This document shows, piece by piece, positions 1,232 through 43,674 of a stretch of 64,000 nt of DNA. Position numbers and translations under genes: made by a program. Source of the DNA: Ginglymostoma cirratum. Taxonomy: Eukaryota. The notes beneath the pieces are model-generated. The model did not search any database and was not told where the DNA came from. It saw only the letters and a program-made list of their open reading frames with translations. The stretch is from positions 10,953,263 through 11,017,262 of the forward strand of contig JAHRHZ010000002.1 of NCBI GenBank assembly GCA_024137785.1, read 5' to 3'. How positions within the stretch are numbered: the first letter of the stretch is position 1; each line of letters starts with the position of its first letter.

Positions 1232-1280
1232 GAAACAACATACAATAACACTGTTTGCAGTAACAGTAATTACAGTTTAG
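1232..1280 (+). pseudogene. Decayed paralog of NCR3-like exon 5 (rest of gene would lie upstream of the window)
   Basis: ttag|gaaacaacatacaataac aligns with ttag|gaagcaacgtacagtaac at 34601. A 2-nt frameshift and TAC>TGC remove the Tyr motif. A SINE fragment follows. Confidence 0.6.
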
Positions 1281-4200
1281 GAAAGGAAAATGTCATCCTT
1301 ACTTGGTCTGGCCAACATTTGACTCCAGACGCACAGCAATGGGGTTGACTCTCAACTGTCCTCTGGACAATTAGGGATTAGCAATAATGCCTAGCCAGCG
1401 ATGCCCTCATCCCGTGAATGAATAAGGAAAAAATGCTTCCTCGTACTCAGACAGTTAGCGCCCAGCTTCTGAATCTGAATCAAAGCAAATCCCTTCCTTG
1501 GTCTTGTTTTTATTGGCATCTCACAGCTAATAAAGTGTTCTGTTCTGCCGTCATTTATTATGTCTTGAAGCAACCCTTGTAACAGCTGCATGTGTTTAGA
1601 CGTAAAATGTTTTCAAAGACAAAACAAAATCTATTAGAAATCAGCTTGGGGTATTCAAATGAAACATTTCACTGTTCTTGTCATTTAATCACTCTATAAA
1701 CTTATTCTAAAAGGCTATCACCTACGACGATGTCCAGTCAATAAATTAATATATTTCTCATCTTCAAGATAATAATTGAGTTAGTTATTAGGTCGTTTTC
1801 ATGCTCTTCAACAATTCCTCAACTTTAGGGTGTCAATTCTTGATTGAAAACGCTGACTAAGAACAATTTGCAGTGGAAACAGAAAAGAAGATGAACCCAC
1901 TAAGTGACTATATCGACGGCATGCATATATACTTATGTATTCTTCGATTTATTTGTATCCACTTTGTTAACCATTTTTGTCCACTTGGTATATTTTGTAA
2001 TGTATTCTATTCATCTTCAACCAGGGAAATGGAGAAGATACGGTGCAATATTGCACACTGGACTTTAAAAAAATGGAGCGAACATTCTTAGAGAAAGATA
2101 AGGTGGTATACAATTTGTTGAAAGATTTATATTCATGTTACTTGCCTTGATATCACAGAATTATATCCGAAATTACGCAATAAGGAAGCATATCATTCAA
2201 ACTTTCTATTTCATAGTCCGTTTGTATCCACCTATCCTTCATAATATTAATATTAATATTAGAAATCACACTGAAAAATTCATCAGAATCATTACATGGA
2301 ATGCTCAAAACTGTTATGGTCACTTAATATATTCTGATGGCTCCAAGACACTGAATTACCAATGATGTAATTCAGCGTTGGTTGATGAATATGGTTATGT
2401 TATAGAACGTGGAGATCAAGTTCACTGATCAATTAATTAGAGTAAGCAAGTGCATCGTTCCGGGTAGCTGGTTAATTACAAGTTATCTATTTTCACGTTT
2501 GAATTCTAAACAATCGCTGCTGGCTTGAGAAAAAAAATTACTCAAAACCAATTGAACACAAAACATGGCAATGTACCATGGGTTCTTCAATGTACAAAAA
2601 GCAAATTGAAGTTTAGCTGGAGAAACACACAAAACAAATACTGTTGAATTCGTAATTGAATATTGTTGAAATAATAGTGTGTGATCCTAATTACGTTCAT
2701 ATTTTACTTTCCTCAAACGAATAGGTGCAGAGGACAATTTACAATATTGATCATTAAAATTAAATGAAAAACGTGAAAACCAGCACGTCTGAAGATCAGA
2801 ACAAGCGAAGATTACGTTGGATTTGTGAAATTATGTCACAAACTTGAAGTCGCTCTATATTTTTATCTCCAAAATAATTGCATATTTTAAAGATATTCAA
2901 TTCAGCATATCTATCTATCTGTCTATCTACCTATCTATCATACGAGCCATATAAGCCATTCAGCCCCTCCAGCTTGCACTGACAGAATAAGTGACGGTTG
3001 GTCATCCGTTGTCATAACACCACCATATCCCCATGCCCCTTAATACCTCTAGAGAACAGAAATCAATCGACCTCTGCCTTGAACTAACTTAATGACTGAC
3101 CTTTCAGAGCCCTCTGAAGTATAGAATTTTACAAATTCATCACCTCCCAGTGAAGAAGATTCTTCTGAACACTGTTCTATATCGCTTGACCTTTATTCTA
3201 ATACTGTGTCCCAAGGTTCAACACCCCATGGCTAGCACAACCGTCCTTTTTCCATTTATTATATTGCGTGAATAATTTCATATGTTTCAATGAGTTTGAC
3301 TCTCTTTCTTCTAAACTCCGTAGAGTACAGGCTCAGTCCCCTCATCAGTCGCCAGAGGATAGTCCCAACATCCCAGTGGTCAGTTTAGTGAGCATTTCTT
3401 GCTTTCCCTCCAGGACAGGTGTGTCCATCCGCATGATAGGGAACGACATACACATGCAATACTCCGGAGGCAGTCTCATCAGTGTCACATATAACTGAAC
3501 TTCGGTTTCTTTGCTCCTGCCCCGAATCTCCTCTTGTGATGAAGGGTAACATATCTTTTGCCATCTGAGTCTCTTGCTGATGCATGTGCAGGCTAACTTT
3601 CAGGGATATATGGACATGGGCACCGAGATTGCAGTTTTAACGATCAGTACATGCTGACTTTTTTTTTAATTGTTTACCTGAAGGTATAATCTATTCATTT
3701 GTCGTAATGATTCTTATTCAGTACAGAAAACTGGTCGTTGCTTTCTATCAATATGGGTACGAAAATCCGTAACATTGGGGACGTTGAGATCATTTAAAAG
3801 TCCTTAAGTTTTGTGATGATTCCGGGAATAGCAGGACTGTATTCCCAGGGTGCTACTCCAGCGAGCGGCGACAACTCTATCAGATTTGGCAGACAAAGCT
3901 AGGTTGCGGGGGGCAAGCTTGGGGGTACAACCAGCTCGAGGTTTGTATGTTGAAAAAAGTATAAATCAGAATTCCAGCACCTTAACTACCAGCCAGTGCC
4001 TGAGTATATGCACTTTACACATCCCCGGTATGGCACCAGTGAATGGTGTTGGCGTGATCGCATTGGATACTTTGAACCCCGCTCATGACCCCATTGGCAA
4101 TTACTCCCTCAGCAAAGACACACAGCAACACCCATCACAGAAGACGATGACACAACCCAAGAAGACCCTGGAGAAGTTCTAACCTTACCTGGGAGACCCA

Positions 4201-4699
4201 TCTTCATGGAAGAGAGCTGGAGCCACACCAGACAGGAAGGAGATTTCAATGGCTCAGCTCAAACTCGCAAATTGATGCAAGTATTATCCTTTCTCAGACA
4301 GATAGAGCTTAATATAGAGTAAATATGTGGGAATTCGGGAAATGTTCACATGATGTTAACAAGGAATAATTTTGCTAATAAAATTGTATAGAACTGCAAA
4401 CTAAGTTATGTGTCCCTTTGTCCACCTCACAGAAGGGAGTACAGGGGTAAAGTGCTTTTAATACATGAACATGTCCAAGTGCCCAAAGTACGGATAACAT
4501 GACGAACACATTTTTGACAAGATACGATGGCTCACTTTATTCATATAGTTGCCCAAGCGGATTTAATAAGTAATACCAATACTAAAGTAATTGAATTAGG
4601 AACTCAGGGCAGAATGATTGGCAGAAAAGGTTTAATTGGTGGGCACTTAGCTTTCTGTCATTGAATATAGTATGATCGAACAAGTGGTAGAGCCAACCC

Positions 4700-6130
4700 C
4701 AAGTGGAAAGGCATCAAAACAAAGTGGTCAGAAGGCAACGTTCAAACACTACTCAAGTGCTGTTTGACAGCACTGCTGATTAAGAGTAGACGGATTGAAC
4801 AACACTTGGTTAGGTTAGATTTGTACTGTTTTTTTCTTTTAAATACAGAGCATGCAACAGCAATTGTTGGAGACATGTCAATATTTTTGTTGTGCTGGGA
4901 CAGCGCAGCTAGAAGTGTGGCTAATCCCACATCACAAATTTTCAGTGTTATTGTCGAAACGTTGTCAAAGCCCATATCCTTTGAAGTATCCATTGCTTTC
5001 ATTCGTTTCTTGATGTCACATTGAGTGAATCAAAAGGCTGAAGACAGTGATTTGTGATGTTCCTAACTTCTGAAGGAAGCTACGATGAATTATTCCCTTT
5101 GCATTTCTGTTTGAAGATGGTAACAAATACTTCCCGTTTTTCTATCCATTTTGTGAGAAGTGGGCATCACTGGCTGGCCAGCATTTCTCACCTAACCCGG
5201 TTACCCTTGAGAAGGTGGTGGTGAGCTGCCTTCTTGAACCACTGCAGTCCACCTGCTATAGGTTGACCCACAATGCCATTAAGTCGGGAATTCCAGGATT
5301 CTGAGTCACAGTGGAGTCACAGATATATCTTTCCAAGTCATTATCTTTTATATCGATGTGTTGGGCTTGCCATCATTGAGGATGGAAATACTTTTGAAGC
5401 CTCCTTTCCTTGTGAGTTATTTGTGTTCCAACGTTCGCGGTTGGATGTAGCAGAGCTGCACGTCTTAGGTCTGATCCCTTTGTTGTTCAGTCACTCAGCT
5501 CTGTCTATCACTTCTTTCTTGTGCTGTCTGCCATAGAACTAATCATGTTTTGTAGCTTCAATGTATGATATCTCATTTTAGCAAACCTGCTTCTATCCAG
5601 ACATCTACTCCTGAACTCTTCATTTGAATCAAGATTGATCCCTGATGTTTTGGTCATGACAGAGAAGTTGATATTCCAGGCCGTACGGGGCACATTGTGT
5701 TCGATTACAATTTTGCTGTGAGTGATGGTCTGTAGCGTCTCAGAGAAACTGAGTACTGAGCTGTTTGATCTGATCGATGTCTATTACATTTAGCATGGTA
5801 ATAGTACCAAACAAAATGATGTGTGCACTCAGTGAGAAGTTGAGACTTTTTCGAATAATGACCATGAGGTCATCACTTTTACTTCTACTGTCATGGACAG
5901 GTGCGCCTGCAACAGGCAGGTTGGTGAAAATGAGGTCAAGAATGTCTTCACTCCCTTTCTTTTGTTCTCTCACCACCTGCTGCAGACCCAGTTAGCAAAC
6001 ATGCCCTTTCAGACTCGATCAGCTTGGTCAATAGTGTTGCTGTCGAACCAATCCTGGTGATTCACTTCGAAGGCCGTTACCATAGAGTACATTCTGTGCT
6101 CCTGACATCTTTAGACCTTCCTACAAGCGG
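4700..6130 (-). mobile_element. Fragments of a second CR1/L2-group LINE family (endonuclease end and RT start)
   Basis: ILDLIFTNLPVAGAPVHDSRSKSDD and DTSKDMGFDNVSTITLKIC...KSNLTKCCSIRLL motifs. Paralogous copy at 35400-36370; related pieces at 40820-41520 and 63890-64000. Confidence 0.75.
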
Positions 6131-6965
6131 TATTCAACATTGATGAGTATTGGTTCGTCAGCAAAAGAAATGAGCAACGAAGTTGTCAGCAGATTTCATT
6201 CTCCATGTTTCCAATTACAGCCACCATTTTACTCGATGTTTTGCGAATTAATGGACAAGTCAATGATAAGAACTCCTGTGGAAACGTCATCCCGGCTGTA
6301 TGCTGGGTCTGTCTGCCGTTAGAGCAGAGCCGCATTAAAAGAGGAAATGTGAGAAGCACCCAAATGTGCAGGATGATTTCCTTTGCGGCATCAGTCGCTC
6401 CTGCTTCAGGGCCTCTATCTGAAATGTTAAACAAACTGCTTCTCCCTCCCCGCTGTCAAAGCCATTCGGCCTTAGAACTTCGCGTAAAAACTTCCTCCAG
6501 GGCGGACTTGGGACGCACCACTCCGCAGAGTCGCCGAGCAGAGGCTGAGACCCAGTTTCGGTTTCCATCAGGAGGGCCTCAACCGGGATCTTGAGTTCAT
6601 GTCGCACTGCAGGTGACCCTGCAACACTACACACTCTGGCATAGACTCACGCAAAAACACCCAAACACACATACTCACACATTCACATCGACACTCTTTC
6701 ATACAAACACTCTCCCTCACACACGCACACGCATACTCAATTGACACACACTCTCTCGCAAGCACACACACACAAACTCATACAAACACACAATCTCTCC
6801 CCGTCGCACGCACACACAAGCACACAAACAACCATACGCCCACAAATATATAAACGTATGGGGTGCATTTGCACATATATTCTATTTTGTTCAGAAAGCA
6901 CACAATTTGTAGACAGCCAATGTGGCATTTTATCAATCTCTACTTTGGAAATTAAACAAGTCTGA

Positions 6966-7140
6966 TTTATTTAACTTATTTATTTATTTAACCCATTTAA
7001 CTTCGTCAGAAAGACATTTAGATGATGCTCTTTCCCCACTGAGCCTTGGCAGCAGCTGCCCCGAGCTTTCGTGCGTCCCACAGCACGTGGCTCTGTACTT
7101 TCCTATGTGCCAGTCTTCAACACTCGGTCGTGGTCATCTA
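6966..7140 (-). mobile_element. Old Tx1-like 3' relic (duplicated at about 10060-10240)
   Basis: - strand RLAHRKVQSHVLWDARKLGAAAAKAQWGKSII*; A/T-rich tail at 6966-7000. Confidence 0.65.
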
Positions 7141-7994
7141 AAATCGCAATGCCACTTCCCTGATTTTACTAATCGAAGCGGTTCTGGTGCATACGCTATT
7201 CAGAGGCCGGGGCCACGACGCTGGGAACAGGGATCCCGCACCTATCAATAGTCCAGTACTGAAGTTCGGCGAATCACTTACCTCCCACCGTGAGGCATGT
7301 GCCTGCTCCATGCTCCTCTCCTGCGCAAAGCAGCCGTAAACTCATCCCAGAAACGTCCAGCCTATCATCTTTTATTTTCAGGGTAAAGATAAAAAAAACT
7401 TCTTCCCTTGATCAAAATATTCCCCGTTCCCCCACCTCCAACCCTGTTTTCTACCATCACACGAGTAACCTTATTTACCACGGGCGTATCTTTGCCTCAG
7501 GACAGGCATTGGCTGTGTGGCTACAGGGGATGAGCATTGATGCCCAGTAAACGCTGAACTCCTCAGCAGACTCTGAATAACAGTTGCCATAACTCGGGAG
7601 AACTATGAAACAAAACCATTGGAGATGGGGACAATGAGATGCGGGATGACGGCAAGAGATCCAATTATCCAATACGAAGAGTTTTTTTTTGTTTTGTCAA
7701 CGGACGCAATATATTTTATTTTAATAGCCACGAACGGAGTAACAGACCAAAAGAGATTTGCTTTCCACCGTCAGCTATTTTTAACACAGAGCACACAGCC
7801 TCATGTAAGAACTGAATTGAGTGAAGTGAAAGAAAGCACTTCGCGTCTCAAATGTTCTCTCGTCACAGTGACATTTTGCTCCCGCTGATCACAGTCCCGC
7901 CGCCGAATATTGGACTTGCCCAAGAGGTTATAAAAGCGAATGCACATCCTCCTCTGCTTCATCTTTGTCCTGCCATACTCTTCCCTCACAACTA

Positions 7995-7996
7995 CA

Positions 7997-8034
<38 letters not shown>

Positions 8035-8035
8035 C
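7995..8035. repeat. (CA)n(GA)n microsatellite; paralog (CTCA)n(CA)n at 20005-20050
   Basis: Seen directly. Confidence 0.95.
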
Positions 8036-8452
8036 GCACACGTACACACACCCATAGAATCTCTTGCTTCGGAGCAAGAAACAATTCAGTTAGTCACAAA
8101 AGCCTGCTCCGTTTCAGTGGCCCTCCACATTTGGCCTCTTCATGTTGCCATGCAGTTTCTTTTTCTAAAACGATTACCGGTTGCGCTGGTCCTCAAGTCC
8201 AGCGAGTAACTGACAAGTTCGATATTTGCCGACTCCTCCGCGGGAAGATGGCGCTCCGATGTTGCCGTCATGGACTTTGAGACCCACTTGTTTCAGGATA
8301 AGCCTCTGGGATCGTGGGTCAATTCCTACCGGGCAGCCAGCGAAATTTACAGGCAAATAAGTAATGTAAAGATGTTTTTTAGGCTCTGCGGATCATGGAA
8401 CAATCTTGGCACTATTTGTTCTAATACAGGTAGTGACCCTGTCGGGAGGGAA

Positions 8453-8537
8453 ATAACAAGGTGTAGAGCTGGATGAACACAGCAGGCCAAGCAGCATCAT
8501 ACGAGCAGGAAAGCCTGAAGTTTCGGGACTAGACCCT
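8453..8537 (-). mobile_element. 85-bp Penelope-derived insertion
   Basis: Perfect 14-bp TSD CTGTCGGGAGGGAA (8439-8452, 8538-8551); absent from the paralogous site at about 20440-20465. Confidence 0.85.
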
Positions 8538-11002
8538 CTGTCGGGAGGGAAGTTTGCTATTCCTATCCAGTCTACCATTCTTATGTAGCGAAACCACAGC
8601 AATGTGTAATTGCCTGCTGAAATGGCTCTCCAAGGATCTCAGCTCTAGGTCACTTAGGGATGTGCAGGCAACATCCCACGAAAGAACTAACAGAAACAAT
8701 CCGTAGCCAGCAGTGATGTATTTTTTTAGTTCCGCGTAAGATCTTATTTTGGGATATGCTCCAAGTGCAGATGGGAGTAATGCATTCTGGGACTTATTTC
8801 AATCCTCTCCATCCATCACTGACACGATATCACAGAGAATTCGAGACTCTTACCTCTCACAGTGAGCTGTCTCCCATATCAATCACATGAATTTCACCCT
8901 ACACTAATACACCCGTCATCGCTCACGTTCAACTCCTTCATTAGAATCGAAGTACCTTGGCCGTGTAAAATAGATCTTTAGGGATCTGTGGGCATGGACA
9001 CCACTGGTATCACTGCAGTTATTGTGCCATGTATAAAACCTTACGAAAATACAATGAGAAAGACGATCAGGAATAGGCATTTCGGTCCCTCAAGCCTGCT
9101 CTGCCATCCAATAGAAATATGGTACATCACACATTCCTCATATCCACTTTTTTACGTTTTCCCCATAACCTTTGATTCCCCTGCTTCTATCAAATTCTAT
9201 CAATCCCAGCCTTAAATGGAGACAACTACGTTGACGCCACAGGTGTCTGTGTTAAGGAATTCCAAAGACCTCAGAACCCTCTGAGAGAGGAAATTCCCCC
9301 TCATCTCAGTCTTGAATTGCTACCCCTTTATTCTGAGGCTACACCCTCTGGTCCTTCTGAGGGCTGTCGGCAGCCCACTAAGTGGTTGACCACTAACTGA
9401 CCTTCCACCTGCAGAATCCTGCAAAATCCATTCATTTTGAGGCTCCCAATCCAACTCCTGCAAGTCAGATGAGAAAAAGGAAGTAGGACATTTGAGAGTC
9501 AATTAGCCAGAATAAACAGCAGGAAACGTGTGCAGCAAGCATGGAAATGACAAAAAATGAAGTAGTGCCAATGCTGAGATCTTAAATTCAAACAGAAGCT
9601 ACTGTAAATTATCCATAGGTCTAGCAGCATCTGTGGAGTGGGAAATAGAGTTAAGGCTCCAAATCCAATTAGACTGTTTTCCAGAATGGAAGAGAATGGG
9701 ATGGAAAAAATTTTCTTCAAATTCTCTGTAAACGTTCTGCTCTTCACCTTAAAAAAATGCCCACTTATTATTGATTCTTCAAGTAAGAACAGGTGCTTCC
9801 TATCAATCTGGGTGATGCCCCTCATAATCTCATTTCAGTCAGATCTTACTTCAGCCTTCACACAAATCACACAAACACATACATTCTCTCTTCCTCGCAC
9901 ACGCACAGAAACACTCACACAATCACACGCGCACAAATATATAAATCTATGGGTTGCATTTGCAGATATGTTCTATTTTGTTCAGACAATGCGCAATTTG
10001 TAGACAGTCAAGGTGGCATTTTATGGATCCCTACTTTGAAAAAAATCAAGTCTGATTCATTTAACTTTTAACTTATTTATATAACTCATTTAACTTCGTC
10101 AGAAAGACCTTTAGATGATGCTCTTTTCCCACTGTTCCTTGGCAGCAGCTGCGTCAAGCTTTAGTGCGTCACTCAGCACATAATTCTGGACCTTGGAATG
10201 TGCCAGTCTGCAACACTCGTTCGAGATCAACTGAAGTCGCTATGCCACGACCCTGATTTTACTAACTGAAGCCTTTCTAGGACACGGACTGTTCAGAGAA
10301 AGGGACCACGACGCTGGGAAAAGGGACCTTCACCTATTGGTTGTCCAGTACTGACTTTCAGCGAATCATTTACCTCCCACCTTGAGACATGTCCCTGCTC
10401 CATACTTCTCTCCTAAGCATAACAGCAGTAAATACATCCCAGAAATGTTCAGCCTCGCATCTGTTATGGACAATGATAAAGAAACGTTCTTCTCTGGGTT
10501 AAAATATTGCCCCTCACCCCACCCCCAACCCTGTTTTCTACCATCCTATGAGTAATCTCAGCTACCACCAGTGTATCTTTGCCTCAGGACAGACATTGGC
10601 TGTGTCGTTACAGGGGATGAGCATTGATGCCCAGTAAATGCTGAACTCCTCAGCAGACTCTGAATAACCGATGCCTTAACTCGGGAGAACTATGAAACAA
10701 AACCATTGGAAATTGGGACATTGAGAGGCGGGATGACGTCAAGAGATACAAACATCCAATACGAACACTTGGCGTTTTTTGGAGATAGCAGGAACTGCAG
10801 ATGCTGGAAAATCTGAGGTAACAAGGTGTAAAGCTGGATGAACACAGCAGGCCAAGCAGCATCAGAGGAGCAGGAAGGCTGACGTTTCAGGCCGAAACCC
10901 TTCTTCAGAAGACAGTATTGTATATTGCAATTTCCCCTATTGATTGAGCTGACCCTTGGAGCCCAGGTGCCTCAAAAGCAGTTCTATTCAAACTCACATA
11001 CA

Positions 11003-12240: not shown

Positions 12241-13132
12241 CCTCTGGCGGTGGTACCAACAACAACACTGGGATGAGCCTGACACGTCTCCACCGCAGCC
12301 CGGCATCTCCCAGGGAGCGATGACCAGGTCCCGAGCTGACAACCCCGGCAGGGACTTATACGCTAGGCCGAGGCTCTGCAGCTAGGCCCGGGCACCTGAA
12401 GGAGTGGAAGCATTGGCCAGAGGGAGGAGAGGTGGATCGGATGCAGCGTCTGGAGGGGCCTAGGATGGGGGACAAGAGGTTGGGAATCCACTCATCCTCA
12501 GGCTGCAGGGCTCCAGTTCGCACGCGGTGCCTGTCACACAGACCGTGGCCGACGTCAAGCAGCGAGTGGAGGAGCAGAGGAAGAGGAATGAGAAGGTGAA
12601 AGAAAGATAAACTCAATTGTGGTAAAATCTTGCATGACATTCAGTGTGACAAGATGGTACCAGAGCATGGCAACATTTTGCATATAATGCGTAAAAATTC
12701 ACTTTTCTCTGTTTCTTTATCTACATGTGACAATAAATCTAAATCTAATCTGCTTGTGAAGGGAGTGGGCATGGGTAAACCTGTGCTGCCACACCATCTT
12801 CCTGGTGGTCAGGCAAGATGGCGGCTTTAAGCTGGTCGACAAGGGCCTCAGGCTGTCCCAAGCAAAAATAGTGATTGCTGGACTCTTTCAGCAGGTCTGG
12901 CAGCATCTATAGAGAGAAATCAATATTCATGTGTTGCTCGAGTGACCTTCCTTAGAATGGTTCTCCTGTTTGCTACAAATGCAGAAACCAGAGTTTCTGT
13001 TGCGGGTCTGCACCCTATACTGGCTGTTCATAAAACTTCCAATCAGTGCCAACACCCCTTTTCTCCAAGTTTCCACTGTTTTTATCATATTACAGTCTGT
13101 ACCTCCTGCCTGTTACAACTGCCTGCCTGTGT

Positions 13133-26492: not shown

Positions 26493-26535
26493 ATGGGTTC
26501 CGGTGCTATGTTCTGCATTCTTAGTCTTGGCTTTG
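26493..26535 (+). CDS. Exon 1 (signal peptide) of NKp30/NCR3-like VJ-type Ig receptor gene
   Basis: gcaaaaATGG strong Kozak context. Encodes MGSGAMFCILSLGF+G and ends at G|GTAAGA (phase 1). Joins the V exon in frame to give MGSGAMFCILSLGFAVTA-ENINVLQ, a plausible cleavable leader. Confidence 0.75.
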
Positions 26536-27783
26536 GTAAGAAGTCTAATTAATACACTTATTGGAATTAAATGGAACTCCAGGCAAACGTTGAAATGTAT
26601 GAGGCTTGTATTTGCTGTGGCACGGAACATGTCATATTAGCAATTTATCACTGGGTATGTATTTACCTAGTTATGCTATTTTATTAAAGGTGGCTAGTGA
26701 GTGAACATCCAAGCGTTCATTAATTTACGGACGTGCATGTGTTCACAGATCAACTCCATTTGCCTTCACTAAATCTCTACTCTACAGCATACCCAAGCTG
26801 GGAGTAATGGGAAGTAATAAAAAGAATTATTTCGCTTCCTTTATTTCAGTTTCTGAACCAATAGTTCCCCACTGATGACAGCATGCATATAAGAAAAAGT
26901 ACCTCAGCAAAGATGTTGATGTCTGAATCTGTGGCACAGCGTGAGACTTCAAGTCAAGCCAAAAGACTTTCTGCTTTAAGTATTGAACTAAACAGCATGT
27001 CATGGGAAATGTCAAAAAACAAAATAGAGCAAGGTTTATCACAGATTTTTCAAAACGTCGTAAAATGTTTGCTAGGTTATGTGGGGCCGGGCGGGAACCA
27101 AAATCTCTTGATACAATTGGAAGCAAACAGGTGAGATATAGACTTGCTAGTTTTAAATCGGTTCTTTTACGGTCGTGATTTAGCACTAAAACGTGCCTTG
27201 AAAGTTGACATTTGGCTTAATTTCTGTCAATTACTTGCAGTTGACTTTGAAATCACGGGACTTCAAGAGCAATGATTAATGTTTTATATCAATTGAAAGA
27301 TTTTAATAACCTTGTAATTGGTGCGCTTTCATAATATATGACTGTAACATCAACTAAATCATCACGTCGTGAAAAATACGCTGTAGTTTTGGTTTTGCAA
27401 TGGAAGGATCGCACAGTACGCCATATACTTTTGAAATTCATTATTCAATGTTCGACAAAACTGAATAAGATCAAAGATTAATATCTTCAAAAGTGAATTA
27501 ACTCAATGGCGCGATTATCCTCCATCATCTTCATCAAAGTAATTTCATCTGATTTATAAATCTATCACAAAATGGTAAAGTCGTTGAATCAAATTTCCTA
27601 TAGTGGAAGAGCTAAACACTTCATTTTGGTGTGTCAATGTCTGCACAATCTTTGGACAAATACACGAGACTGCTCCGTCGTTTGAATTCCAATAATTGAT
27701 TTTAGCAAGAATATTTCACGCAGACACCTCAATGTGGGATAAATGTCTGATTTCAGTATGAAACGTTGTTTGTTCTTTTACAG

Positions 27784-28122
27784 CAGTGACTGCTGAGAAC
27801 ATCAATGTTCTTCAAAGCCCGGCATTTGTTAATGTAACCGAGGGGGCGACGGCCGCTATGCACTGTGCTTACGAAGGATCTGATGGACCGAGTGTCTTCA
27901 AGTGGTTCAGGAACAGTACAGGCGGAGCCGAACTTTGTAACAGCACAGCACAATACAGAGGCCGGGTCATTGGGCCAAACAGGGAGAAAATCGACGAAAG
28001 GACGGGCGCCTGGATTCAACTAACAAAGGTGACATTGAACGATGAGGCGACCTATTATTGCAAAGTGGAATTTGTCTCAAGCAGTGAACATTATGGACAA
28101 GGAACAACACTTTTTGTTACAG
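27784..28122 (+). CDS. Exon 2: single-exon VJ-type Ig V domain, natural cytotoxicity triggering receptor 3 (NKp30)-like
   Basis: Pyrimidine tract + CAG acceptor (tandem CAGCAG), AG|GTGAGC donor, phase 1-1. Has B-strand Cys (AAMHC), C-strand Trp (FKWFR), NSTAQYRGRV, DEATYYC and J-like G strand YGQGTTLFVT. No RSS seen. Family assignment is from motif recognition, not a search. Confidence 0.9.
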
Positions 28123-28399
28123 GTGAGCTTGCCACACGCTGCTACTTTTAACAATGAAGTAGCAAAATTGTATAATTGAGGAGTCTTTTCGTTCACACTC
28201 CCTCTCAGATGTCAATCTTACACTAGCAGAGGTCCTACAGACCCAACTTCGCAAATTAAGGCATTAGAAAACCAGATATTACAAACGCTGAGATGTACTT
28301 CGCTAATTTATCCCACCATATTTCTTGAATGTTGTCTCACAACTCGAATAATTATTTTGATTCTATCTTCGACATAGAGGCTACAAGGAACATTGCACC

Positions 28400-29400
28400 A
28401 ACAGCTGTAGATTAGGAAGTGGGAAAGAAAGAGACGCGTTTGAAGTTACAATCACCAGGGAAGCGAGCTGACACGTCCCCAGGTCCTGATCGAACTCTCA
28501 TGCCTTCTTAAAAGAAATGGCCACATATCCCATAAATACATTGGTGCTAACTTTCCAAAGTTCGCTGGATTCTGGGAAGTTTACAACAGGCAAGAATGTG
28601 ACAAATCGATTCAAGAGGGAGGGAAGCAGAAATCCCCAAGTTAAAAACCAGTACACAAGTCGCATGTCGCCAGTAATCGATCAGCAATCTGAGTTTTAGT
28701 TGATAATGTAGCAAATCTGAAAATCGTTAGGAAGTATCAGAGTGGTGTTTTAGAAAAGTAATGATGTTCAACAGTTTACCAGAGTTCTATGGACGTACTG
28801 CGCTTGGACTTCCAAAAGACATTTGCAAGGTACCATGTTCTTTCAGAAAATATGTCAGGGGTACATTATTAGTACGGATAGATAGACATCAGCTGTCTGG
28901 CTGGTAGAAAGCGGAGAGTATGTGTGAATAATTCCGTTTTGTTTGGTAAGCTGTGACGACTGGCGTCCAACAAATGTCTGTTCTGGGGCCTATCTTTTTG
29001 CAAAGTATATCAATGACATGAATGAACCGACCGAAAACAAACGTTGATGTTAACAGATTACTCAGAAATCTGGCAGATGGAGTTCAATGAGGGAAAATGT
29101 GAATACAACAGTCAGCGTCTTACCTAAATGGCAAACAAATGTAGGATACAGAGGTGGAAATAAATCTAGTGCAAAAATCACATGAGTTCGCGTGCAGGAC
29201 AGAAAGCAACTAAAACAGAGATGGTTGAAGAAACTCAATAGTCTGGCAGCATCTGCGAGAAAGAAACAGAGTTAACGTTTGGAGTCCACTGACCCTTCTT
29301 CAGAAATTAATTCAGTTGACCAATGCAATGCCATCTTTTAATGCCATATGATTGATAATAAAAGTAAGTACGTTATGCATCAGTTGTATTTGTGATATCA
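28400..29400 (+). mobile_element. Highly degenerate CR1-like RT fragment in intron 2
   Basis: ttggacttccaaaagacattt (LDFQKxF) and tggcagatggagttcaat (WQMEFN) remnants. Confidence 0.7.
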
Positions 29401-30123
29401 CATCATTAATATTGTATAAACTCTCCTTCCAATTGCAATTTAAAATAACTAAAAACCCCGGAAGTACAATACATATCTAATATGCCAACGGCATGCGGGG
29501 AATTAGAATTGTAAACCATCTCGCCTTCAGGTTTAATCTGAGGTCAGAGGATACATAGATTTGAAACGACCTGATTCGATTCTTCCACGGTATCAATCCT
29601 GTCACTTTCATGAATTTAGCATCTGATTGCATGTTGAATTAATCCAATACCCAAGCTCTCTGACCATTCCAGCCAAGCCCTTCCTTGAGGCGTGCGTGCG
29701 CTCTGCAGGAATAAGTGGTCGCCGGTGTCTGTTTTAAACAGATTTCACTGCACAGAATGTGTGTCTGTCAAATGTTCGCTTGGCCAGTCCTTTGAAAATT
29801 GATAACATCGCCAAACGGCGCCAAGGCCTGCTCCGTTAAAGTCAATGGAAGAAATAGAGAGTCATCGTGGTCTGTTTGTTCCTGACCAGTTCTAGGTAAA
29901 TTCACTGAACAACGAGAGCGTGACGTCGGTATGGATCCAACCTTGTCCGAAATATTTCCTATCCGCATCAGGGCGGCCTTGTGCTACTCCGTTTTGGTTT
30001 ATAGAAAACTAATCGTTTAAAGGCTAGTATTAAGAGTCAAAAGTTGGATAAAGGGAACACGTTTCTTGAAGCAAAATGGAATCTGAGAATATCAATTTAA
30101 ATTAAATTGCATGGCGGGAAATG

Positions 30124-30480
30124 GGAGAGGAGAGGCAATGGTCTCATGGTATTATCGATACACTGTTAATTCTGAGAATCAGCTAAAGTTCTGAGGATCC
30201 GGTTTTAAATCCTGCAATGGCATTTGGTGGAATTTGAATTCAATACAGAATTAACGGTCTAAGGTTTTGTTATCAATCATGAATCCATTGTTGATCGTTG
30301 GAAAAACCCATCTGGTTAGTTAATTTCCTTTAAGGAAGGAAATCTGCCATCTTTACCTGGTCTGGCCTACAGGTGACTCCAGACCCACAGCACGTGGTGG
30401 ACTCTTAACTGTCCTCTGGGCAATTAGGGATGGGCGATAAATGCTGGTCTAGCGAGACACGTACATATCCTGTGAGCAAT
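30124..30480 (+). mobile_element. DeuSINE/SacSINE1-like SINE
   Basis: tRNA-like head, ggtggaatttgaattcaat, ggaaatctgccatc...tggtctggcctac...gactccagacccacagca. Relatives at 33700-33985 (-), 46988-47270 (+), 39215-39350 (-) and 1285-1430. Confidence 0.65.
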
Positions 30481-30893
30481 TTTTTTTAATGCATTCTGTT
30501 CGCTGGAATACTTCCCAGTAATCTGCCTGTGCTAACTAGCAATGCAGTCAGTTTAGAAGAATTCAAAACTAAGGAGCATAACACTCAGGTGAGAGGTGAA
30601 AGACTTAAAAGGGACCTGGAGGGCAACTTTTTCACACAGTTCGTATGTGGAATTTCCTGCCAGAGGAAGTGGTAGGTTACAGTAACAACATTTAAAAGAC
30701 ATTTGGACAGGTACATGAATAGAAAAGGTTTAGAGGGATATGGGCCAAATGCAAATAAGTCACTCTCGTCTAATTTGGGAAAGTTGGTTGACATGGGCGA
30801 GTTGGACCAAAGGGTCTGTTACCGTGCTGTCTGACTCTATGAGAGCAGGCTAGGGCAAAAAGAAGATCAATGACATTTGTTTCCTTCCGGCAG

Positions 30894-31025
30894 CGAGGAG
30901 CAGAAATCATACATCGATCATTTCCAAGGGTAGACGGACAGCCCTGGTTGTAACAACGGTGGGATTCCTACTGACCGCACTCTCAGTGGTAACTATTGTC
31001 ATCTCATGCCGAAACGAAGCGAAAG
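30894..31025 (+). CDS. Exon 3: stalk + transmembrane segment of the NCR3-like gene
   Basis: tttccttccggcag| acceptor, phase 1. Encodes (A)RSRNHTSIISKGRRTALVVTTVGFLLTALSVVTIVISCRNEAK with a roughly 23-residue hydrophobic stretch. Donor AAAG|GTGCAC is weak. Confidence 0.8.
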
Positions 31026-31140
31026 GTGCACATCGCTTCATTGTATAATCTCAACCCTTCCATATTGCTAGTCATGTCGCGGACATTCTAATGTATTTGT
31101 GCTCGGACTGTATGTTAAGTTATATATTTGGAATGCCCAG

Positions 31141-31213
31141 CTCTCCGACGGCGGAATCAACAACAATTACAGATCAGGAACGTAAAGGGACCGTTTTCCT
31201 CGTCTTCAGGCAG
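31141..31213 (+). CDS. Exon 4: membrane-proximal cytoplasmic exon of the NCR3-like gene
   Basis: cccag| acceptor after a 115-nt intron, phase 1. Encodes (A)LRRRNQQQLQIRNVKGPFSSSSG, a basic stop-transfer-like segment. Ends AG|GTTTGT (phase 2), matching exon 5. Confidence 0.6.
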
Positions 31214-32464
31214 GTTTGTTTTGAATCGATGGCAACGTTTAAAGCCTGGAATACGTTCAGTGTTTCAGAAAGGGAAGAGAAATTGGGGGAAACACAGAAA
31301 CGTAGCAAATGGGAGTAAGAGTAGGCCACTCATCATCACGCTGCATAGGTCAATGCAATCGTGGTTAATTCTCTACCCCAGCGCCTCACACGCTTTTTCC
31401 CCACCCAGTAAGTGAAGATTATTGTTCCCCTCAGTTTTAGCCTTATAGGTCCTATTCTGTAAACTGAGACTGCGAAACCTTTTTCCAGGCACCACTGTTG
31501 TTCCTGTTTGAAAAAAAAATTCTTTTTCTCACAGTTTTGGGTACCATTTCGAATTCTTAACTCCAACCAACAACGAAAGCTATCCCTGACTACTCGCCAC
31601 AATACAGCTACATGTTTCCGTCCCTGCTGACTTAATTGTACCCGTACCCATTTCTGATGGGTTTTTTTTCTCCTCCCTACACATCGTACAGAGAAATTTC
31701 ACAGACGACCATTGAGCAGAATTGAGGATCGGGTATATAGCATCCCAGAATAACTGAGCTTGTTTGCATCTCTTCAGCACTGTGATACCTGTTGGCTTCG
31801 TTGATGTCTATAACCCGCAAAACCAAAATGATTCCTGGAGTGTTCACCCATTTAATAGCAGGGAGCAGATGTAAAACCCGCAAGCAAGTAGATAATAACT
31901 ACAAACTCACCTGGTGATTGAAATGCAAGACAGTTCTGAACATCATACCTCATTTTAATGTTCCTTTACGAATATTTCTCGTGAATCATTCATTGGACGG
32001 TCCAGGCTAGCATTTATTGCCCACTCGTACTTGCCCTTGAGCAGTTGGTGGTGAGCTACATTCTGGAACTGCTGCAGTTATCGGGGTAGAGTCAGAACCA
32101 TACAGTAGAGAGGAGGTGTTTGGAACCCAACAAGACTCCGTTGTCAAAAACTACTCCAAATACACACAAGTCCCACTTTCCAACACTTGGCTCATGAATG
32201 TTATGACATTTCAAGTGCTTATCCAAATACTTCCTGACTTAATTGTACCTGTACCCTGCGTATCACAGCAAATTTGTAACTCAATATTCCAATCACATCA
32301 ACTCTCCATCCCAACTTGGCAAACGTTTTACGATTAATCTGTTACTACAAGAATAAAACTACAACATGTATGGATAGAATACATATCCATGTATGTATTG
32401 TATGGTTCTGACTCTACCCCGGTAACTGCAGCAGTTCCAGAATGTAGTGCACCACCAACTGGTC

Positions 32465-33600
32465 AACAGGTTTCCTGCCTCAACTGCCCTGCCAGGTAGT
32501 GCGCTCCAGATTTCTAACACCCCCAAGATGAATTTTGTTTTCCTCAACTCTCACCTAAGTTCTTTTTACCTTAAAATTACAACCCTTTATAGCTAACCTT
32601 TCAAATAAAGAGAACAGTTGCTTTCTATCTATCCCGTCCATGTGCCTGATCATTTTTTTACCCATCAATAATGCCCTCTCTTAGCCTTCGCTGCTGCGCT
32701 GAAAACAACCCAAGCTTATTCAGCCTCCATTCATAGCTAAACCACTCCACTTCAGGCAACATTTTTGTGGCTCTCCTCTGCATACCCTCCAGCACATTGA
32801 CATGCTTCCTTTAGTGACACAGAAACGTAACGGGTTCAACATATCTTCTCTGCTTTTATAATCTATGCCACGCCTGATAAAGACTAAAGTCCTTTATGTT
32901 TTCTGAACTATTAAAATCCTATCACCTCCAGGGATCTGTAGACAAGCACTCTAAGATCCCTCAATTCACCTGAGCTTCCTAGTGTCCTGCCATTCATTAC
33001 ATACTCTTTGTCTTTTTATTTCTCTGAACTGCACCAGCTCACATTTATGAAGGTTAAATTCCATCTGACATCAATCTGTCCATATGACCAATCTTTCTAT
33101 ATCCTCCCGCAAACGAGGACTTTCTTCCTCACTGTCGACCACCTGGTTAACCTTTGTGTCGTCCGTAAACTTAGTTATCATCCGTCCCCACCCTCACATA
33201 TTTGCTTCCATATCATTTGTGTATATCACAAGCAATAAAGAACTAAGTAATGACCTCTTTGGTACACCACTGAACGCAGGCCTCCAATCATACAAGTAGA
33301 TTTCCAGCACGACCTTCTATCCCCGAACAGCAAGCCAATTTTGGATCCGCCCTTGTCAAGTTACCCTGGATGCCATGGGGCTACGCGTTTTTTTTAATCA
33401 GTCTTTCCTGTGGAACCTTGCCAAAGGCCTTGCTGAAATCGATATAATTGCCACCAACAATACTATCCCTGTCAATTTTTTTTTAGGCATGACCTCTCTA
33501 AAGTCCACGATGACAATCCCAAATCAAACTTTGCCTCTCCAAATGGAAATTAAATTTCTCCTTCAGAATTTTATTCAACAGGCTCCTTGCCACTGATGTT
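32465..33600 (-). mobile_element. Degenerate CR1-like LINE fragment (paralog at 1-290)
   Basis: tgtggaaccttgccaaaggccttgctgaaatc (reverse of DFSKAFxKVPH) and CR1 3' region remnants. Confidence 0.75.
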
Positions 33601-36600
33601 TGAGTGGTAAGAGGCAGTCATGGAGTTAGTTCCAGAAATTTGACCCAACATCATGTATAATTAACATAATTCTCCCACTTTTAATCATTCATACATAAGG
33701 GGCATCGCTGGCTATGCAGCTTTTTTTTCCAGGGGGCGGTTAAGTGTCAGTCAAATTGTTGTGGGTCTGGACTCAAATGTAGGGATGGCAGTTTCCTTCC
33801 CTAAAGGACGTTAGTGAACCAGGTAGGTTTTTTTAAGCCAACAATCGGCAAGGGATTCACGGACAAGATTAATTACAGATATTTATTGAATTCAAATGCC
33901 ACCATTGAAGCCAAGTCCCCAGAATGTTAACTGGGTCTCTGGATTAACAGTCCAGTGATAATACCACTAGACTATCACCTCCCCATCATTATCACTCTGT
34001 GCCAATATTCAACTCTGTCAAAAAGTCTCAATAACCTGATCAACATCTTCAATTGTTAAAATGGTTTCCTTACAAACCATGTCTTTACCGTTGGGATAGC
34101 TCGCATAGTTCATTATCTTCTGAATCATTTCAATCTTGCTGCAAATCACTGTCTTTTCATCTCACGCAGTAAGTTGGGTGGCGTGGTGACTCAGTGGTTA
34201 GTATTGCCGTCTCACAGAACACGTGTCTGCGTGGATTTCCTCCCACAGTCCAAAATTGTGCAGGTTAGCGGGATTGGCTGTGCTAAATTGTCCATTGTGC
34301 CCAGGGATGCGCAGGCTAGGTGGATTAGCATGGTAAATGCAGGGTTACAGGGGTAGAGTGGATGTTTTTCAGGAAGTCAGTGTGCACTCGATGGGCCAAA
34401 CGGCCTGCTTCCACACTGTCGAGATCCTACGAATTAATTGCACCTTTTGTTTTTATTGCGTTCATTTGAAAAGCTAACTATTCCGTTATGTTCTACAATC
34501 CGGAAGTAAGCCCTAATATTTACCTTGATTTTTCTTTTCGTCTTCAAGCTACTTTATGATCTAAAGAATGACCTTGTAATAAATTACACCTTCTTACAAT
34601 TTAGGAAGCAACGTACAGTAACTATTTACAGTAACACTAATTATAGTTCCGAGGACTCAGACAGTGAACCCCCAACTTCGGATTCTGTGGTCAATAGAGC
34701 GCTATAAGATTCTAACTAAGTTAATATATTTCACGTCTTCAGGATTGTAACTGAGTTTAGTTAATTGTACTATTATCGTGCTTGTCAACAATTCCTCAAC
34801 TGTAGGGTGTCGATTCTTGACTAAAAACGCTGACTAAGAACAATTTGCAGAGGAAACAGAAAAGAGATGCACCTACTCTGTGAATATACCGAAAGCATAA
34901 ATATGTATTTATAACTCATGGTCCTTCAGTCTATCCATCTATCCTTCATAACATTAATGCTAATAATATAAACCACTCTGAAAAATTCATCAGAATCATT
35001 ACATGGAATGTTCAAAACCGTTATTGTTCCTTAATATGTTATGATGACCCTAAGACACCAAATTACTAAACTACCCATGATGTATTCTTCAATTTAGTTG
35101 TGTCCACGTTGTTAACCATTTTTGTCCACTTGGTATATTTAGTGGTGGATTCTATTTATCTTCAACCAGGGAAATGGAGAAGATAAAGTGCAATATTATG
35201 CGCTGCACTTTTTAAAAAATGAGCGAAGATCCGAAGAGAAAGACAAGGTGGCATGCAATTTGTTGAAAGATTTATATTAATGTTGATTACCTTGATATCA
35301 CTGAATTATATATGACTATGAGCAATATGGAAACATTTAATTCAAACTTTGTATGGTCCTCGGTCTATCCACCTATCCTTCATAACATTAATGCTAATAG
35401 TATGGCTGGCCAGAATTTTGCGCCCATCCCAGTTACCCTTGAGAAGGTGGTGGTGAGCTGCATTCTTGAACCGCTGCAGTCCACCTGCTATAGGTTGACC
35501 CGCAATGCCATCAGGGAGGGAATTCTAGGATTTTGATCCAGTGAAGCGAAGGGATGGAGATATATTTCAAAGCCATTATCTTTTATATTGATGTGTTGGG
35601 CTTGCCCATCATTGAGGATGGAAAAAGTTTTGAAGCCTCCTTCCGTTGTGAGTTATTTGTGCTCCAACGCTCATGATTGGATGTAGCAGGACCGCAGATC
35701 ATAGGTCTGATCCCTTTGTTGTTCAGTCACTCAGCTCTGTCCATCCCTTGTTTCTTGCGCTGTCTGCCATAAAAGTAATCATGTTTTGTAGCTTCACCGG
35801 ATTGAAACCTCATTTTAGCTATACCTGCTTCTGATCGAGGCATCTACTCCTGCATTCCTCATTGAATCAGGACTGATCCCTGACAGTTTGGTAATGCTGG
35901 AGAAGTTGATATTCCAGGCCGTGAAGGGCACATTGCATTTGAATACAATTTTGCTGCGGGTGATGGTCTGTAAGGTCCCAGAGAGACTGAGTCCTGAGTT
36001 GCTTGATCTGATCGATGTGTATTACATTTAGCACGGCAATAGTACCAAACAAAATGATGCATGCGCTCAGTGTGAAGTTGAGATTTTGGTTCGAATAAGG
36101 ACCATGAGGTCATCACTTTTACTTCTACAGTCATGGACAGGTGCATCCGCAGCAGGCAGATATGTGAAGATGAGGTCAAGAATATCTTCACACCCTTTCC
36201 TTTGTTCCCTCGCCACCTGCTGCAGACCCAGTTAGCGAACATGCCCTTTCAGACTCGATCAGCTTGGTCAATAATGTTTCTGTCGAGCCAATCCTGGTCA
36301 TTCACTTTGAATACCGCGACCACAGAGTACATTTTGTGCTCCTGACATCTTTAGAACTTCCTACCAGTGGTATACAGCATTTATGAGTATAGAATAGTCA
36401 GCCAAGGGAGTGAGCAACGAAGTTGTCAGCAGATTTCATTCTCCATGTTTCCAAATACAACCACCATTTTACTCGATGGTTTGCGAATTAATGGGGGTGT
36501 CAATGATAAGAACGCCTATGGAAACTTCATACTGTCTGTATGCCTCTGAACAACCACCTCTGCTGGGTCTGTCTGCCGTTGGGATAGAACCTCATTAAGA

Positions 36601-37257
36601 GAGGAAATGCCAGAAGCACTCAAATGTGCCGGATGATTTCTTCAGCGGCATCAGCTGCTCCTGCTTCAGGGCGTCTATCTGAAATTTTAAACAAACTGCT
36701 TCTCCCTCCCAGTGGGGGGACACTTGAGTGGTTAAAGTCATTCGGCCTCAGAACTGCAGGTAAACGTCCTCCCAGGCGCACTTCGGGATAAACAACAAAG
36801 CAGAGTCACCAAGCAGAGGCTGACAGCCAAGTTCGGTTCTCATGAGGATGGCCTCAACCGGGATCTTGTGTTCATGTCTCACTACAGGCGACCCCACCAC
36901 ACGAAACACTCTCACTCACACACTCTCATACAAACACTCTCTCACACACTCATATACGCACACAAATACACTCAAACACATATGCTCACTACTCACATGG
37001 GCGCTCTTTCATACACACACTCTCCCTCAAACTCAATTGGCACACACTCTCAGCCAAACACACACACACACACACAAGCTTTCTCTCTCCCTCGCACGCA
37101 GAAAAACGAACGCACACAAATATATAAATCTATGGGGTGAATTTGCAGATTTGTAATTGCAGATGTTTTCTATTTTGTTCAGAAAGCACACAATTTGTAG
37201 ATAGTCAATGTGGCATTTTATAAATCGCTACTTTGGAAATAAATCAAGTCTGATTTC
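33325..37257 (+). repeat. Segmental duplication paralogous to about 1-6965
   Basis: Same order of CR1 relic, unique spacer, SINE, exon 5, 3' flank, LINE relic and CA-rich tract; copy-specific indels. Confidence 0.9.
34605..34707 (+). CDS. Exon 5: terminal cytoplasmic exon with tyrosine motif
   Basis: ccttcttacaatttag| acceptor, phase 2. Encodes (R)KQRTVTIYSNTNYSSEDSDSEPPTSDSVVNRAL*. The five exons total 690 nt = 229 aa + stop. Acceptor is conserved in the paralogous copy at 1231. Confidence 0.6.
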
Positions 37258-43339: not shown

Positions 43340-43674
43340 GACAACCATTTGGGAACATCACAGTGATCCGGTGCCCACCCTCGATTATTACAAGTGAAGG
43401 TGTAACTGTACTTCTTCGCTGTATGTGCAATGGGCCAATATAGATAGGTGCATACAAGTGGCACCTCAATGTCATAGGGGACACTGAAGTGTCCAACAAA
43501 ACAGCACAATACAGAGGGTATGTGTCCTTTCCAGACAGGAAGACCTTCCTGTTGACAAAAGATGCATTGTTAAAAATTGCTGACACCAAAATAAGTGATT
43601 CTGAGATCTATTATTGTGAAATGGAGTACACGACTTATGGAACAAAATATGGGGCAAGAGCAAATCGTATCTGA
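43340..43674 (+). pseudogene. Pseudo-exon: VJ-type Ig V domain, NCR3-like
   Basis: GNITVIRCPPSIITSEGVTVLLRCMCNGPI*IGAYKWHLNVIGDTEVSNKTAQYRGYVSFPDRKTFLLTKDALLKIADTKISDSEIYYCEMEYTTYGTKYGARANRI*. In-frame TAG at 43441, degraded GxGT motif, no donor site. Shares TAQYRG with the exon at 27784. Confidence 0.85.

What the first reader, a model, noticed from the sequence alone, without database searches (positions are those of the whole stretch)
26493..34707. Intact NKp30/NCR3-like VJ-type receptor with a self-contained tyrosine-motif tail
Seen: five phase-compatible exons giving a 229-aa type I protein with V and J-like segments in one exon and no RSS. Established: mammalian NKp30 signals through an intramembrane Arg pairing with CD3zeta/FcRgamma. 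Here the hydrophobic span has no internal charge (KGRR lies at its outer edge), and the tail of about 60 aa has VTIYSNTNY. This is a YxN Grb2-type (ITT-like) motif as in DNAM-1/TIGIT/CD28, overlapping an imperfect ITSM, followed by an acidic Ser-rich run. Inference: a family member with adaptor-independent, co-receptor-like signalling, relevant to the ancestry of antigen-receptor V domains.
Basis: partly seen in the sequence, partly recalled or inferred. Interest (0 to 1): 0.7.

Follow-up and report, generated by a model that had tools for sequence, protein, structure and literature searches.

The report
Shark NKp30-family receptor with inhibitory tail

Summary
Exons 1-3 are right: leader, an unsplit VJ exon and an uncharged transmembrane exon of a shark NCR3/NKp30-family gene, one of 19 related V exons on a contig that also holds MHC class I exons. 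Exons 4-5 are very likely wrong. Two overlooked exons, 31692-31732 (41 nt) and 35170-35280, give a 221-aa protein collinear with white shark, catshark and horn shark proteins, with a canonical ITIM (VQYYAL). Both keep splice sites and frame in the two open paralogues and lose them in the two broken ones. Likely an inhibitory, SHP-recruiting receptor; no splice junction of either tail was seen. Contigs of three runs (one study) cross the V-exon donor unspliced for 1.1-1.3 kb, a hint of a soluble V-only form. This copy has lost the second ITIM exon. The scan found ITIM-tailed shark NKp30 genes before in other genomes. Ordinary: new member of a known family.

The parts
26493..26535 (+). Exon 1, leader (43 nt, phase 1)
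   Evidence: same exon in 4 of 4 paralogues; GTG for ATG in one; donor 26535 used in contigs of X3 and X4, joined to 26850
26850..27130 (+). Cryptic 281-nt exon in intron 1; its inclusion puts stops in front of the V domain
   Evidence: GT..AG joints 26535->26850 and 27130->27784 in contigs of X3 and X4; translation
27784..28122 (+). Exon 2, single unsplit VJ-type V domain (339 nt), NKp30-like
   Evidence: acceptor 27784 used in contigs of X3 and X4
28123..29394 (+). 5' part of intron 2 held unspliced with the V exon in contigs; frame ends 9 codons after the donor (stop 28149-28151), AATAAA at 29159 and 29357; candidate last exon of a 136-aa soluble form
   Evidence: contigs 27967-29368 (X3), 28040-29394 (X4), 27847-29249 (X5), one study. 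May be unspliced precursor
30894..31025 (+). Exon 3, stalk and uncharged transmembrane span (132 nt)
31141..31213 (+).
   Evidence: weak acceptor; donor reads TT in 3 of 4 paralogues; crossed unspliced at 31213 by one X3 contig
31692..31732 (+). True exon 4 (predicted): 41-nt juxtamembrane linker, phase 1 to 0
   Evidence: best of 171 open AG..GT candidates against three orthologue linkers, score 49 against 24 for the next; same 14 codons as the orthologues; AG, GT and length kept in paralogues B and D
34605..34707 (+).
   Evidence: 2-nt indel against 4 of 4 paralogues, Tyr codon is TGC or AGC there, SINE inserted inside in 4 of 4; no similarity to orthologue tails
35170..35280 (+). True exon 5 (predicted): 78-nt phase-0 ITIM exon (ITIM VQYYAL, codons 35188-35205, Tyr194) read through its donor at 35247 to the stop at 35278-35280
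   Evidence: tblastn with orthologue tails; white shark isoform P0002 ends by the same read-through
35402..35403 (.). Breakpoint of a deletion of about 2.9-4.1 kb against the paralogues; it removed the second ITIM exon and 3-7 poly(A) hexamers

Best explanation
This is a shark NCR3/NKp30-family gene whose membrane form is likely a 221-aa inhibitory receptor, spliced from 26493-26535, 27784-28122, 30894-31025, 31692-31732 and 35170-35280. Shown: the exons, their splice signals and frame, one VJ domain with an NKp30-like predicted fold, an uncharged membrane span, an ITIM (VQYYAL), and collinearity with proteins of three other shark orders. Inferred: the V domain binds a cell-surface ligand (a B7-H6-like protein, by analogy with human NKp30); a Src-family kinase phosphorylates Tyr194; the phospho-ITIM recruits SHP-1/SHP-2 and damps NK- or T-cell activation, set against sister genes that carry an Arg or Lys in the membrane span and short tails. 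This copy keeps one ITIM where the family has two, so inhibition would be weaker or need dimers. It lies in a cluster under birth-and-death evolution.
For: Tail: corrected tail against white shark P0002, catshark P0004 and horn shark P0007 scores 84, 80, 62; 0 of 2000 shuffles reach any; the ITIM exon was found by tblastn with those tails, not chosen by motif. Linker exon is the best of 171 candidates and has the orthologues' length. In the two paralogues with open V and TM exons (B, D) both exons keep AG, GT and length 41/78; in the two with a stop in the TM exon (A, C) both acceptors are lost and the ITIM exon has +1 nt. pN/pS of the two tail exons is 0.65, 0.45, 0.20 for the three pairs of open copies (39 codons). 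Family: V groups with those three orthologues and the paralogues at 100/99; family profile ranks human NKp30 first in PDB, 91-93 bits against 72 for SIRP; Foldseek ranks NKp30 1, 3, 4 and 6 (TM 0.79); 25 of 28 MHC class I matches lie on the same contig, the nearest about 1.0 Mb from the gene. ITIMs occur in 14 of 28 picked relatives scanned. Sister genes with a membrane charge: G000:C2:10281583 (Arg; V 77% identical) and G000:C2:19296831 (Lys; identical to nurse shark NCR3 QTT61904.1).
Against: No transcript shows the tail spliced, so the model rests on homology. Nucleotide identity of the two tail exons to paralogues (79-88%) is no higher than intron identity (81-83%). The second ITIM exon and the nearby poly(A) signals are deleted; the next hexamer lies 1991 nt past the ITIM donor. 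The spliced contigs seen at the 5' end are non-productive: one includes a stop-bearing exon, one skips the leader. Contigs of three runs cross the V donor unspliced. A narrow profile ties SIRP (51.5 bits) with NKp30 (49.1), the single V sequence ranks antibodies above NKp30, and the deep tree is unresolved. The Arg-bearing sister gene lacks the first Ig cysteine and may be dead. An ITIM need not inhibit: the NKp44-1 ITIM did not recruit SHP-1/2 (PMC6514059, passage).
Confidence: 0.72

Rival explanations
1. The gene's working product is a secreted 136-aa leader-plus-V protein made by reading through the V donor and polyadenylating in intron 2; it would act as a soluble decoy for the ligand, while the membrane exons, which lost their last exon and poly(A) sites, are little used.
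For: Contigs of X3, X4 and X5 run unspliced from the V exon to 29368, 29394 and 29249 (0, 0 and 13 other letters), two of them ending 6-32 nt past the AATAAA at 29357; the same runs hold GT..AG joints, so they contain spliced RNA. The read-through frame closes after 9 codons. The 3' deletion removed 3-7 poly(A) hexamers.
Against: One study only; the runs' kind is not on record; contigs cannot show ends, strand or level; other intron stretches are also held unspliced, so these may be precursors. The V donor is strong (8 of 9). The hexamers are kept in 3-4 of 4 paralogues, about what 82% intron identity gives by chance. The tail exons are open with pN/pS under 1.
Confidence: 0.15
2. The locus is a young, still open pseudogene: transcribed, mostly mis-spliced, and making little or no protein.
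For: All three spliced joints seen belong to non-productive forms; 2 of 4 tandem paralogues are broken; second ITIM exon deleted; tail exon identity equals intron identity.
Against: All five exons are open with intact splice sites; V pN/pS 0.46-0.58 against the open paralogues; canonical Cys, Trp and J motif are kept and the model folds at pLDDT 91.
Confidence: 0.09
3. One reading: exons 31141-31213 and 34605-34707 are used, giving a newly made YxN tail that binds Grb2 and co-stimulates without an adaptor.
For: Open frame with GT-AG ends; donor 31213 scores 7 of 9 and acceptor 34605 has 11 of 16 pyrimidines; the acceptor AG at both places is kept in 4 of 4 paralogues; YxN is a real Grb2/GADS motif in the CD28 family (PMC11599192, passages).
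Against: No similarity to orthologue tails; Tyr absent, frame shifted by 2 nt and a SINE inside in 4 of 4 paralogues; donor absent in 3 of 4; weakest acceptor at 31141; YxN arises in 7 of 53 chance frames here; an X3 contig crosses 31213 unspliced; it needs two conserved exons to be skipped.
Confidence: 0.04

Closest known systems
White shark XP_041069021/22 (P0153, P0002; labelled SIRP-beta-1-like), catshark XP_038673433 (P0004) and horn shark XP_067865381 (P0007) (both labelled NCR3-like)
   Same: Leader, one VJ domain (63, 55, 61% identical), uncharged membrane span, 14-codon linker exon, ITIM exon with VQYxxL; same clade at 100/99
   Different: ITIM reads VQYYAL, not VQYCTL/VQYSAL; the second ITIM exon of P0153 and P0007 is deleted here; five tandem copies in this genome
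Nurse shark NCR3 family (QTT61898.1 = P0021, QTT61904.1 = P0049; Kinlein et al. 2021, Immunogenetics 73:333, title seen only)
   Same: Same multigene family of VJ exons; the V and TM exons of one gene in this genome are identical to QTT61904.1; MHC-linked
   Different: Window V is 36-39% identical to these two; no database protein identical to this gene was found. Whether it is one of the paper's subtypes, and whether the paper describes ITIM tails, I could not see
Human NKp30 (NCR3; PDB 3NOI, 3PV6, 6YJP)
   Same: Single VJ-type domain, best fold and profile match, MHC-linked
   Different: 27% identity; human NKp30 has a membrane Arg that pairs with CD3zeta/FcRgamma and no signalling tail (PMC6514059, passages); this gene has no charge and an ITIM
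Paired activating/inhibitory Ig receptors (KIR, SIRP-alpha/beta1, LILR; recalled)
   Same: Works like the inhibitory partner: ITIM tail, uncharged span, sister genes with like ectodomain and a membrane Arg or Lys
   Different: Other family and locus; one V domain and no C1 domains; the closest activating-type sister may be broken
YxN co-receptors (CD28, CD28H; DNAM-1 and TIGIT recalled)
   Same: Single V domain type I receptors; NKp30 is counted near the CD28 family (PMC6514059)
   Different: The conserved tail here has no YxN

Membership tests
Shark NCR3/NKp30 multigene family | V and J-like segments in one non-rearranging exon | tested here: met
   339-nt open exon with YGQGT; only weak RSS look-alikes, none at the V/J border
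Shark NCR3/NKp30 multigene family | V domain closest to NKp30 among solved structures | tested here: met
   Family profile: NKp30 top four; Foldseek rank 1. Narrow profile ties with SIRP; single sequence does not discriminate
Shark NCR3/NKp30 multigene family | Groups with shark proteins labelled NCR3 | tested here: met
   Clade with P0004 and P0007 at 100/99; labels are database names
Shark NCR3/NKp30 multigene family | All NCR3-like V domains form one clade apart from SIRP and TCR V | tested here: inconclusive
   Backbone unresolved; one clade of 40 rows not rejected, p-AU 0.14. No human NKp30, CD28 or CD226 row was available; SIRP-like and TCR-like rows were labelled by eye
Shark NCR3/NKp30 multigene family | Linked to the MHC | tested here: met
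   25 of 28 MHC class I matches on contig C2; nearest 79 kb from the first NCR3-like V exon and about 1.0 Mb from this gene
Mammalian-type activating NKp30 | Arg in the membrane span for CD3zeta/FcRgamma | tested here: not met
   No charge in residues 144-164; not filed under this type
Mammalian-type activating NKp30 | Binds B7-H6 | not testable with these tools
   No shark B7-H6 sequence was fetched; no binding test run
ITIM-bearing inhibitory (paired) receptors | Cytoplasmic S/I/V/L-x-Y-x-x-I/L/V in frame behind an uncharged span | tested here: met
   VQYYAL in the corrected model, conserved position in 3 orthologues and paralogues B and D; consensus recalled
ITIM-bearing inhibitory (paired) receptors | Intact activating sister gene with a like ectodomain | tested here: inconclusive
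   G000:C2:10281-10285 kb: 77% V identity and membrane Arg, but first Ig Cys is Arg and no last exon was found
ITIM-bearing inhibitory (paired) receptors | Recruits SHP-1/SHP-2 and inhibits | not testable with these tools
   Needs an experiment
YxN (Grb2/ITT-like) co-receptors | Conserved cytoplasmic YxN in the expressed tail | tested here: not met
SIRP family | V domain followed by C1 domains | tested here: not met
   No further Ig-like frame between V and TM exons; orthologues join V to the stalk directly

The most novel reading that the evidence does not exclude
One shark NKp30 gene makes both a membrane ITIM receptor and a secreted V-only decoy by choosing between splicing and intronic polyadenylation after the VJ exon, the same switch that makes membrane and secreted antibody heavy chains; loss of its last exon and poly(A) sites has tipped this copy towards the secreted form, an inhibitory receptor turning into a soluble decoy.
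Probability: 0.2. Interest if true: 0.5.

Novelty: new member of a known kind. Interest (0 to 1): 0.24.

Why it matters
It corrects the sign of the predicted signal: inhibitory, not co-stimulatory. It adds to the picture that NKp30, a single activating receptor in mammals, is a cluster of on- and off-type receptors in sharks, and gives exact junctions to test. It says nothing new about the origin of antigen-receptor V domains. If the soluble form is real it would be a decoy of the NKp30 family made by an antibody-like membrane/secreted switch.

Tried and rejected
RNA: no RNA holder listed for the stretch. In 8 of 12 listed runs laid, no joint was listed for 26535->27784, 28122->30894, or any tail junction of either model, and 35103-35400 had no cover; X7 laid nothing and the raw reads of X6 (24% of the run) fell on repeats. 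These blanks are no evidence either way; small-share runs X1 and X2 gave only short pieces in intron 2. Alternative tails built and rejected: 41-nt exon 31141-31181 plus the ITIM exon (my first fix; replaced by 31692-31732, which scores 49 against 10), a GC donor at 31209, skipping exon 4, TM read-through. An early idea that 34605 is a decayed ITIM exon was dropped when the real one was found at 35170. A conserved in-frame cassette at 31141 was rejected: paralogue D would carry a stop, A and C a frameshift; an occasional cassette is not excluded. Protein searches: V exon found 1 longer relative and none of its own length. Literature: Kinlein 2021, Flajnik 2012 and Ohta and Flajnik 2015 are not held; seven searches listed no paper that by title or abstract start describes shark NKp30 tails, which does not show that none exists; the elephant shark supplement had no hit for NKp30/NCR3/B7H6. 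No complex was predicted: no ligand sequence was in hand.
Full report
OBSERVATION. The V exon is a V-set domain with the J-like motif inside it and no credible RSS. The membrane span has no charge. So the sequence facts hold. The question is whether stretches 4 and 5 are exons.

SETTING. The window is G000:C2:10953263-11017262 of a 4.36-Gb genome. The V exon finds 20 matches, 19 separate exons, all on C2: 14 at 10.05-11.00 Mb and 5 at 19.17-19.35 Mb (a lower bound). Four upstream tandem copies (A 10780 kb, B 10854 kb, C 10877 kb, D 10946 kb) share the whole gene region. MHC class I exons lie on the same contig (25 of 28 matches), the nearest 79 kb from the first V exon of the cluster. One gene of the far cluster is identical in V and TM exons to nurse shark NCR3 QTT61904.1, so the organism is that shark or a close relative.

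FAMILY. The single V sequence does not discriminate: antibodies rank above NKp30 in PDB. A profile of 21 shark family members ranks four human NKp30 chains first (91-93 bits; SIRP 72); a profile of the 8 closest ties SIRP and NKp30 (51.5 and 49.1). The predicted structure (pLDDT 91) has NKp30 at Foldseek ranks 1, 3, 4 and 6, by a thin E-value margin but with the best TM and rmsd. In a tree of 50 V domains (36 picked from about 150 hits, 14 from this genome; broken and a few near-duplicate exons left out) the gene sits at 100/99 with white shark P0002, catshark P0004, horn shark P0007, bamboo shark P0001 and its paralogues; P0004 and P0007 are labelled NCR3-like, P0001 and P0002 SIRP-beta-1-like. 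The backbone is unresolved and one NCR3 clade is neither shown nor rejected (p-AU 0.14). With the single-V layout and MHC linkage I file it in the shark NCR3 family, not as a mammalian-type activating NKp30.

THE TAIL IS MIS-SPLICED. The three closest orthologues have, behind the membrane exon, a 14-residue linker and then an ITIM exon with VQYCTL or VQYSAL. It is a phase-0 exon, so a phase 1-to-0 linker must precede it. Of 171 open AG..GT candidates between the TM and ITIM exons the best match to the orthologue linkers is 31692-31732, 41 nt, score 49 against 24 for the next, with 12 of 16 pyrimidines at the acceptor. The resulting 221-aa protein aligns end to end with the orthologues; its tail scores 84, 80 and 62 with 0 of 2000 shuffles reaching any (the linker was chosen by this likeness, the ITIM exon alone already gave 74, 54, 48 with 0, 0, 1 of 1000 shuffles). 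The paralogues act as a natural control: B and D, whose V and TM exons are open, keep AG, GT and length at both exons; A and C, which have a stop in the TM exon, have lost both acceptors and gained a base in the ITIM exon. YxN appears in 7 of 53 chance frames in this region. Against my reading: tail exon identity to paralogues (79-88%) equals intron identity (81-83%), and pN/pS (0.20-0.65) rests on 39 codons.

THIS COPY'S DAMAGE. The paralogues carry a second ITIM exon about 0.6 kb further on (open ITIM LQYCSL in B and C, altered or broken in A and D). The window copy has lost it in a deletion of 2.9-4.1 kb at 35402/35403 that also removed 3-7 poly(A) hexamers; the next hexamer is 1991 nt past the ITIM donor. 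The frame therefore reads through the donor at 35247 to a stop at 35280, as white shark isoform P0002 does.

TRANSCRIPTS. Contigs of X3 and X4 (study P3, kind not on record) hold GT..AG joints 26535->26850, 27130->27784 and, in X3, 26358->27784. They show the leader donor and V acceptor in use, but in forms that are non-productive. Contigs of X3, X4 and X5 cross the V donor unspliced, with 83 or more letters on each side, and reach 29249-29394; AATAAA lies at 29159 and 29357. Leader plus V read-through would give 136 aa ending 9 codons into the intron. Contigs cannot give ends, strand or level, and other intron pieces are held too, so this is a hint of a soluble form, from one study. What was not covered is told under Tried and rejected.

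MECHANISM. Shown: exon anatomy, uncharged span, ITIM, orthology. From established knowledge (recalled, except as cited): ITIMs are phosphorylated by Src-family kinases and recruit SHP-1/2; human NKp30 signals by a membrane Arg and CD3zeta/FcRgamma and its tail has no signalling motif (PMC6514059, passages), and the NKp44-1 ITIM failed to recruit phosphatases (same paper), so the motif is not proof. Inferred: an inhibitory receptor for a B7-H6-like ligand, paired with charged-span sisters: the gene at C2:10281-10285 kb (V 77% identical, membrane Arg, but first Cys lost) and the QTT61904.1-identical gene (membrane Lys, tail of a few residues). Among 28 relatives that I picked, 14 have an ITIM by the pattern, so the tail type is common in non-mammalian members.

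WHAT IS KNOWN. NCR3 as an MHC-linked single-exon VJ gene is published (PMC12227049 and PMC10751288, passages seen); the first paper places UrIg2, not NCR3, closer to Ig/TCR. YxN as a Grb2/GADS motif of CD28-family tails: PMC11599192 (passages). Kinlein et al. 2021 on the shark NCR3 family was seen only as a title in reference lists; that it reports eight subtypes and MHC linkage is my recall, and its text and supplements may already describe this subtype and its ITIM. PMC12272517, PMC10450919 and PMC12863176: reference entries only; PMC3964593: supplement searched, no hit. After I had reached this reading, the scan's index showed five notes on ITIM-tailed or paired shark NKp30 genes in other genomes and none for this place or sequence; they are unchecked leads, not support.

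VERDICT. Real gene, wrong tail. A likely inhibitory member of the known shark NCR3 cluster; the striking YxN co-receptor claim falls. Interest 0.24; the one open oddity is the possible secreted V-only form.

Noticed in passing
window 43354-43653 (+): Second NCR3-like V exon in the window, 32% identical, with an in-frame stop and a broken J motif: pseudogene.
   Followed up: partly
window 26358 and upstream: An upstream exon ending at 26358 is spliced straight to the V exon in an X3 contig, skipping the leader; an alternative start without an in-frame ATG.
   Followed up: partly
window 555-9859 against 34100-37256 and 19718-21759: The start of the window holds the 3' end of paralogue D (ITIM exon at about 2025-2102, broken second ITIM exon at about 2721), about 80% identical to the gene's 3' region: the tandem duplication unit.
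   Followed up: yes
G000:C2:10854307-10864500 (paralogue B): Open copy with an 18-nt deletion in the stalk and both ITIM exons with intact acceptors; the best candidate for a two-ITIM receptor in the cluster.
   Followed up: partly
L002, L003, L004 (paralogues D, A, B): The Tyr of the J motif is Cys in the paralogues (HCGQG), next to a Cys at the C' position (ELCN) shared with this gene; a possible extra disulphide or free thiol.
   Followed up: no
window 28123-28151: The V read-through ends in a Cys near the stop in all five copies, which recalls the secretory tailpiece of antibodies (recalled); may be only intron similarity.
   Followed up: no
G000:C2:10807735-10814871: Three V exons of another subfamily at 3.4-kb spacing, likely a multi-V receptor like horn shark and ray proteins P0006 and P0011.
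   Followed up: no
P0001 and G000:C2:10281-10285 kb: Activating-type genes (membrane Arg, short tail) share the V clade of this ITIM gene at 100/100, closer than its ITIM orthologues in other orders: an ectodomain shared across opposite tails in carpet sharks.
   Followed up: partly
   Followed up: no
window 27874-27952: One X5 contig has 13 other letters, most in this part of the V exon: an allele, a paralogue or a chimeric contig.
   Followed up: no
window 12831-14322: Long pyrimidine-rich tandem repeat giving spurious 311-329 aa frames.
   Followed up: no
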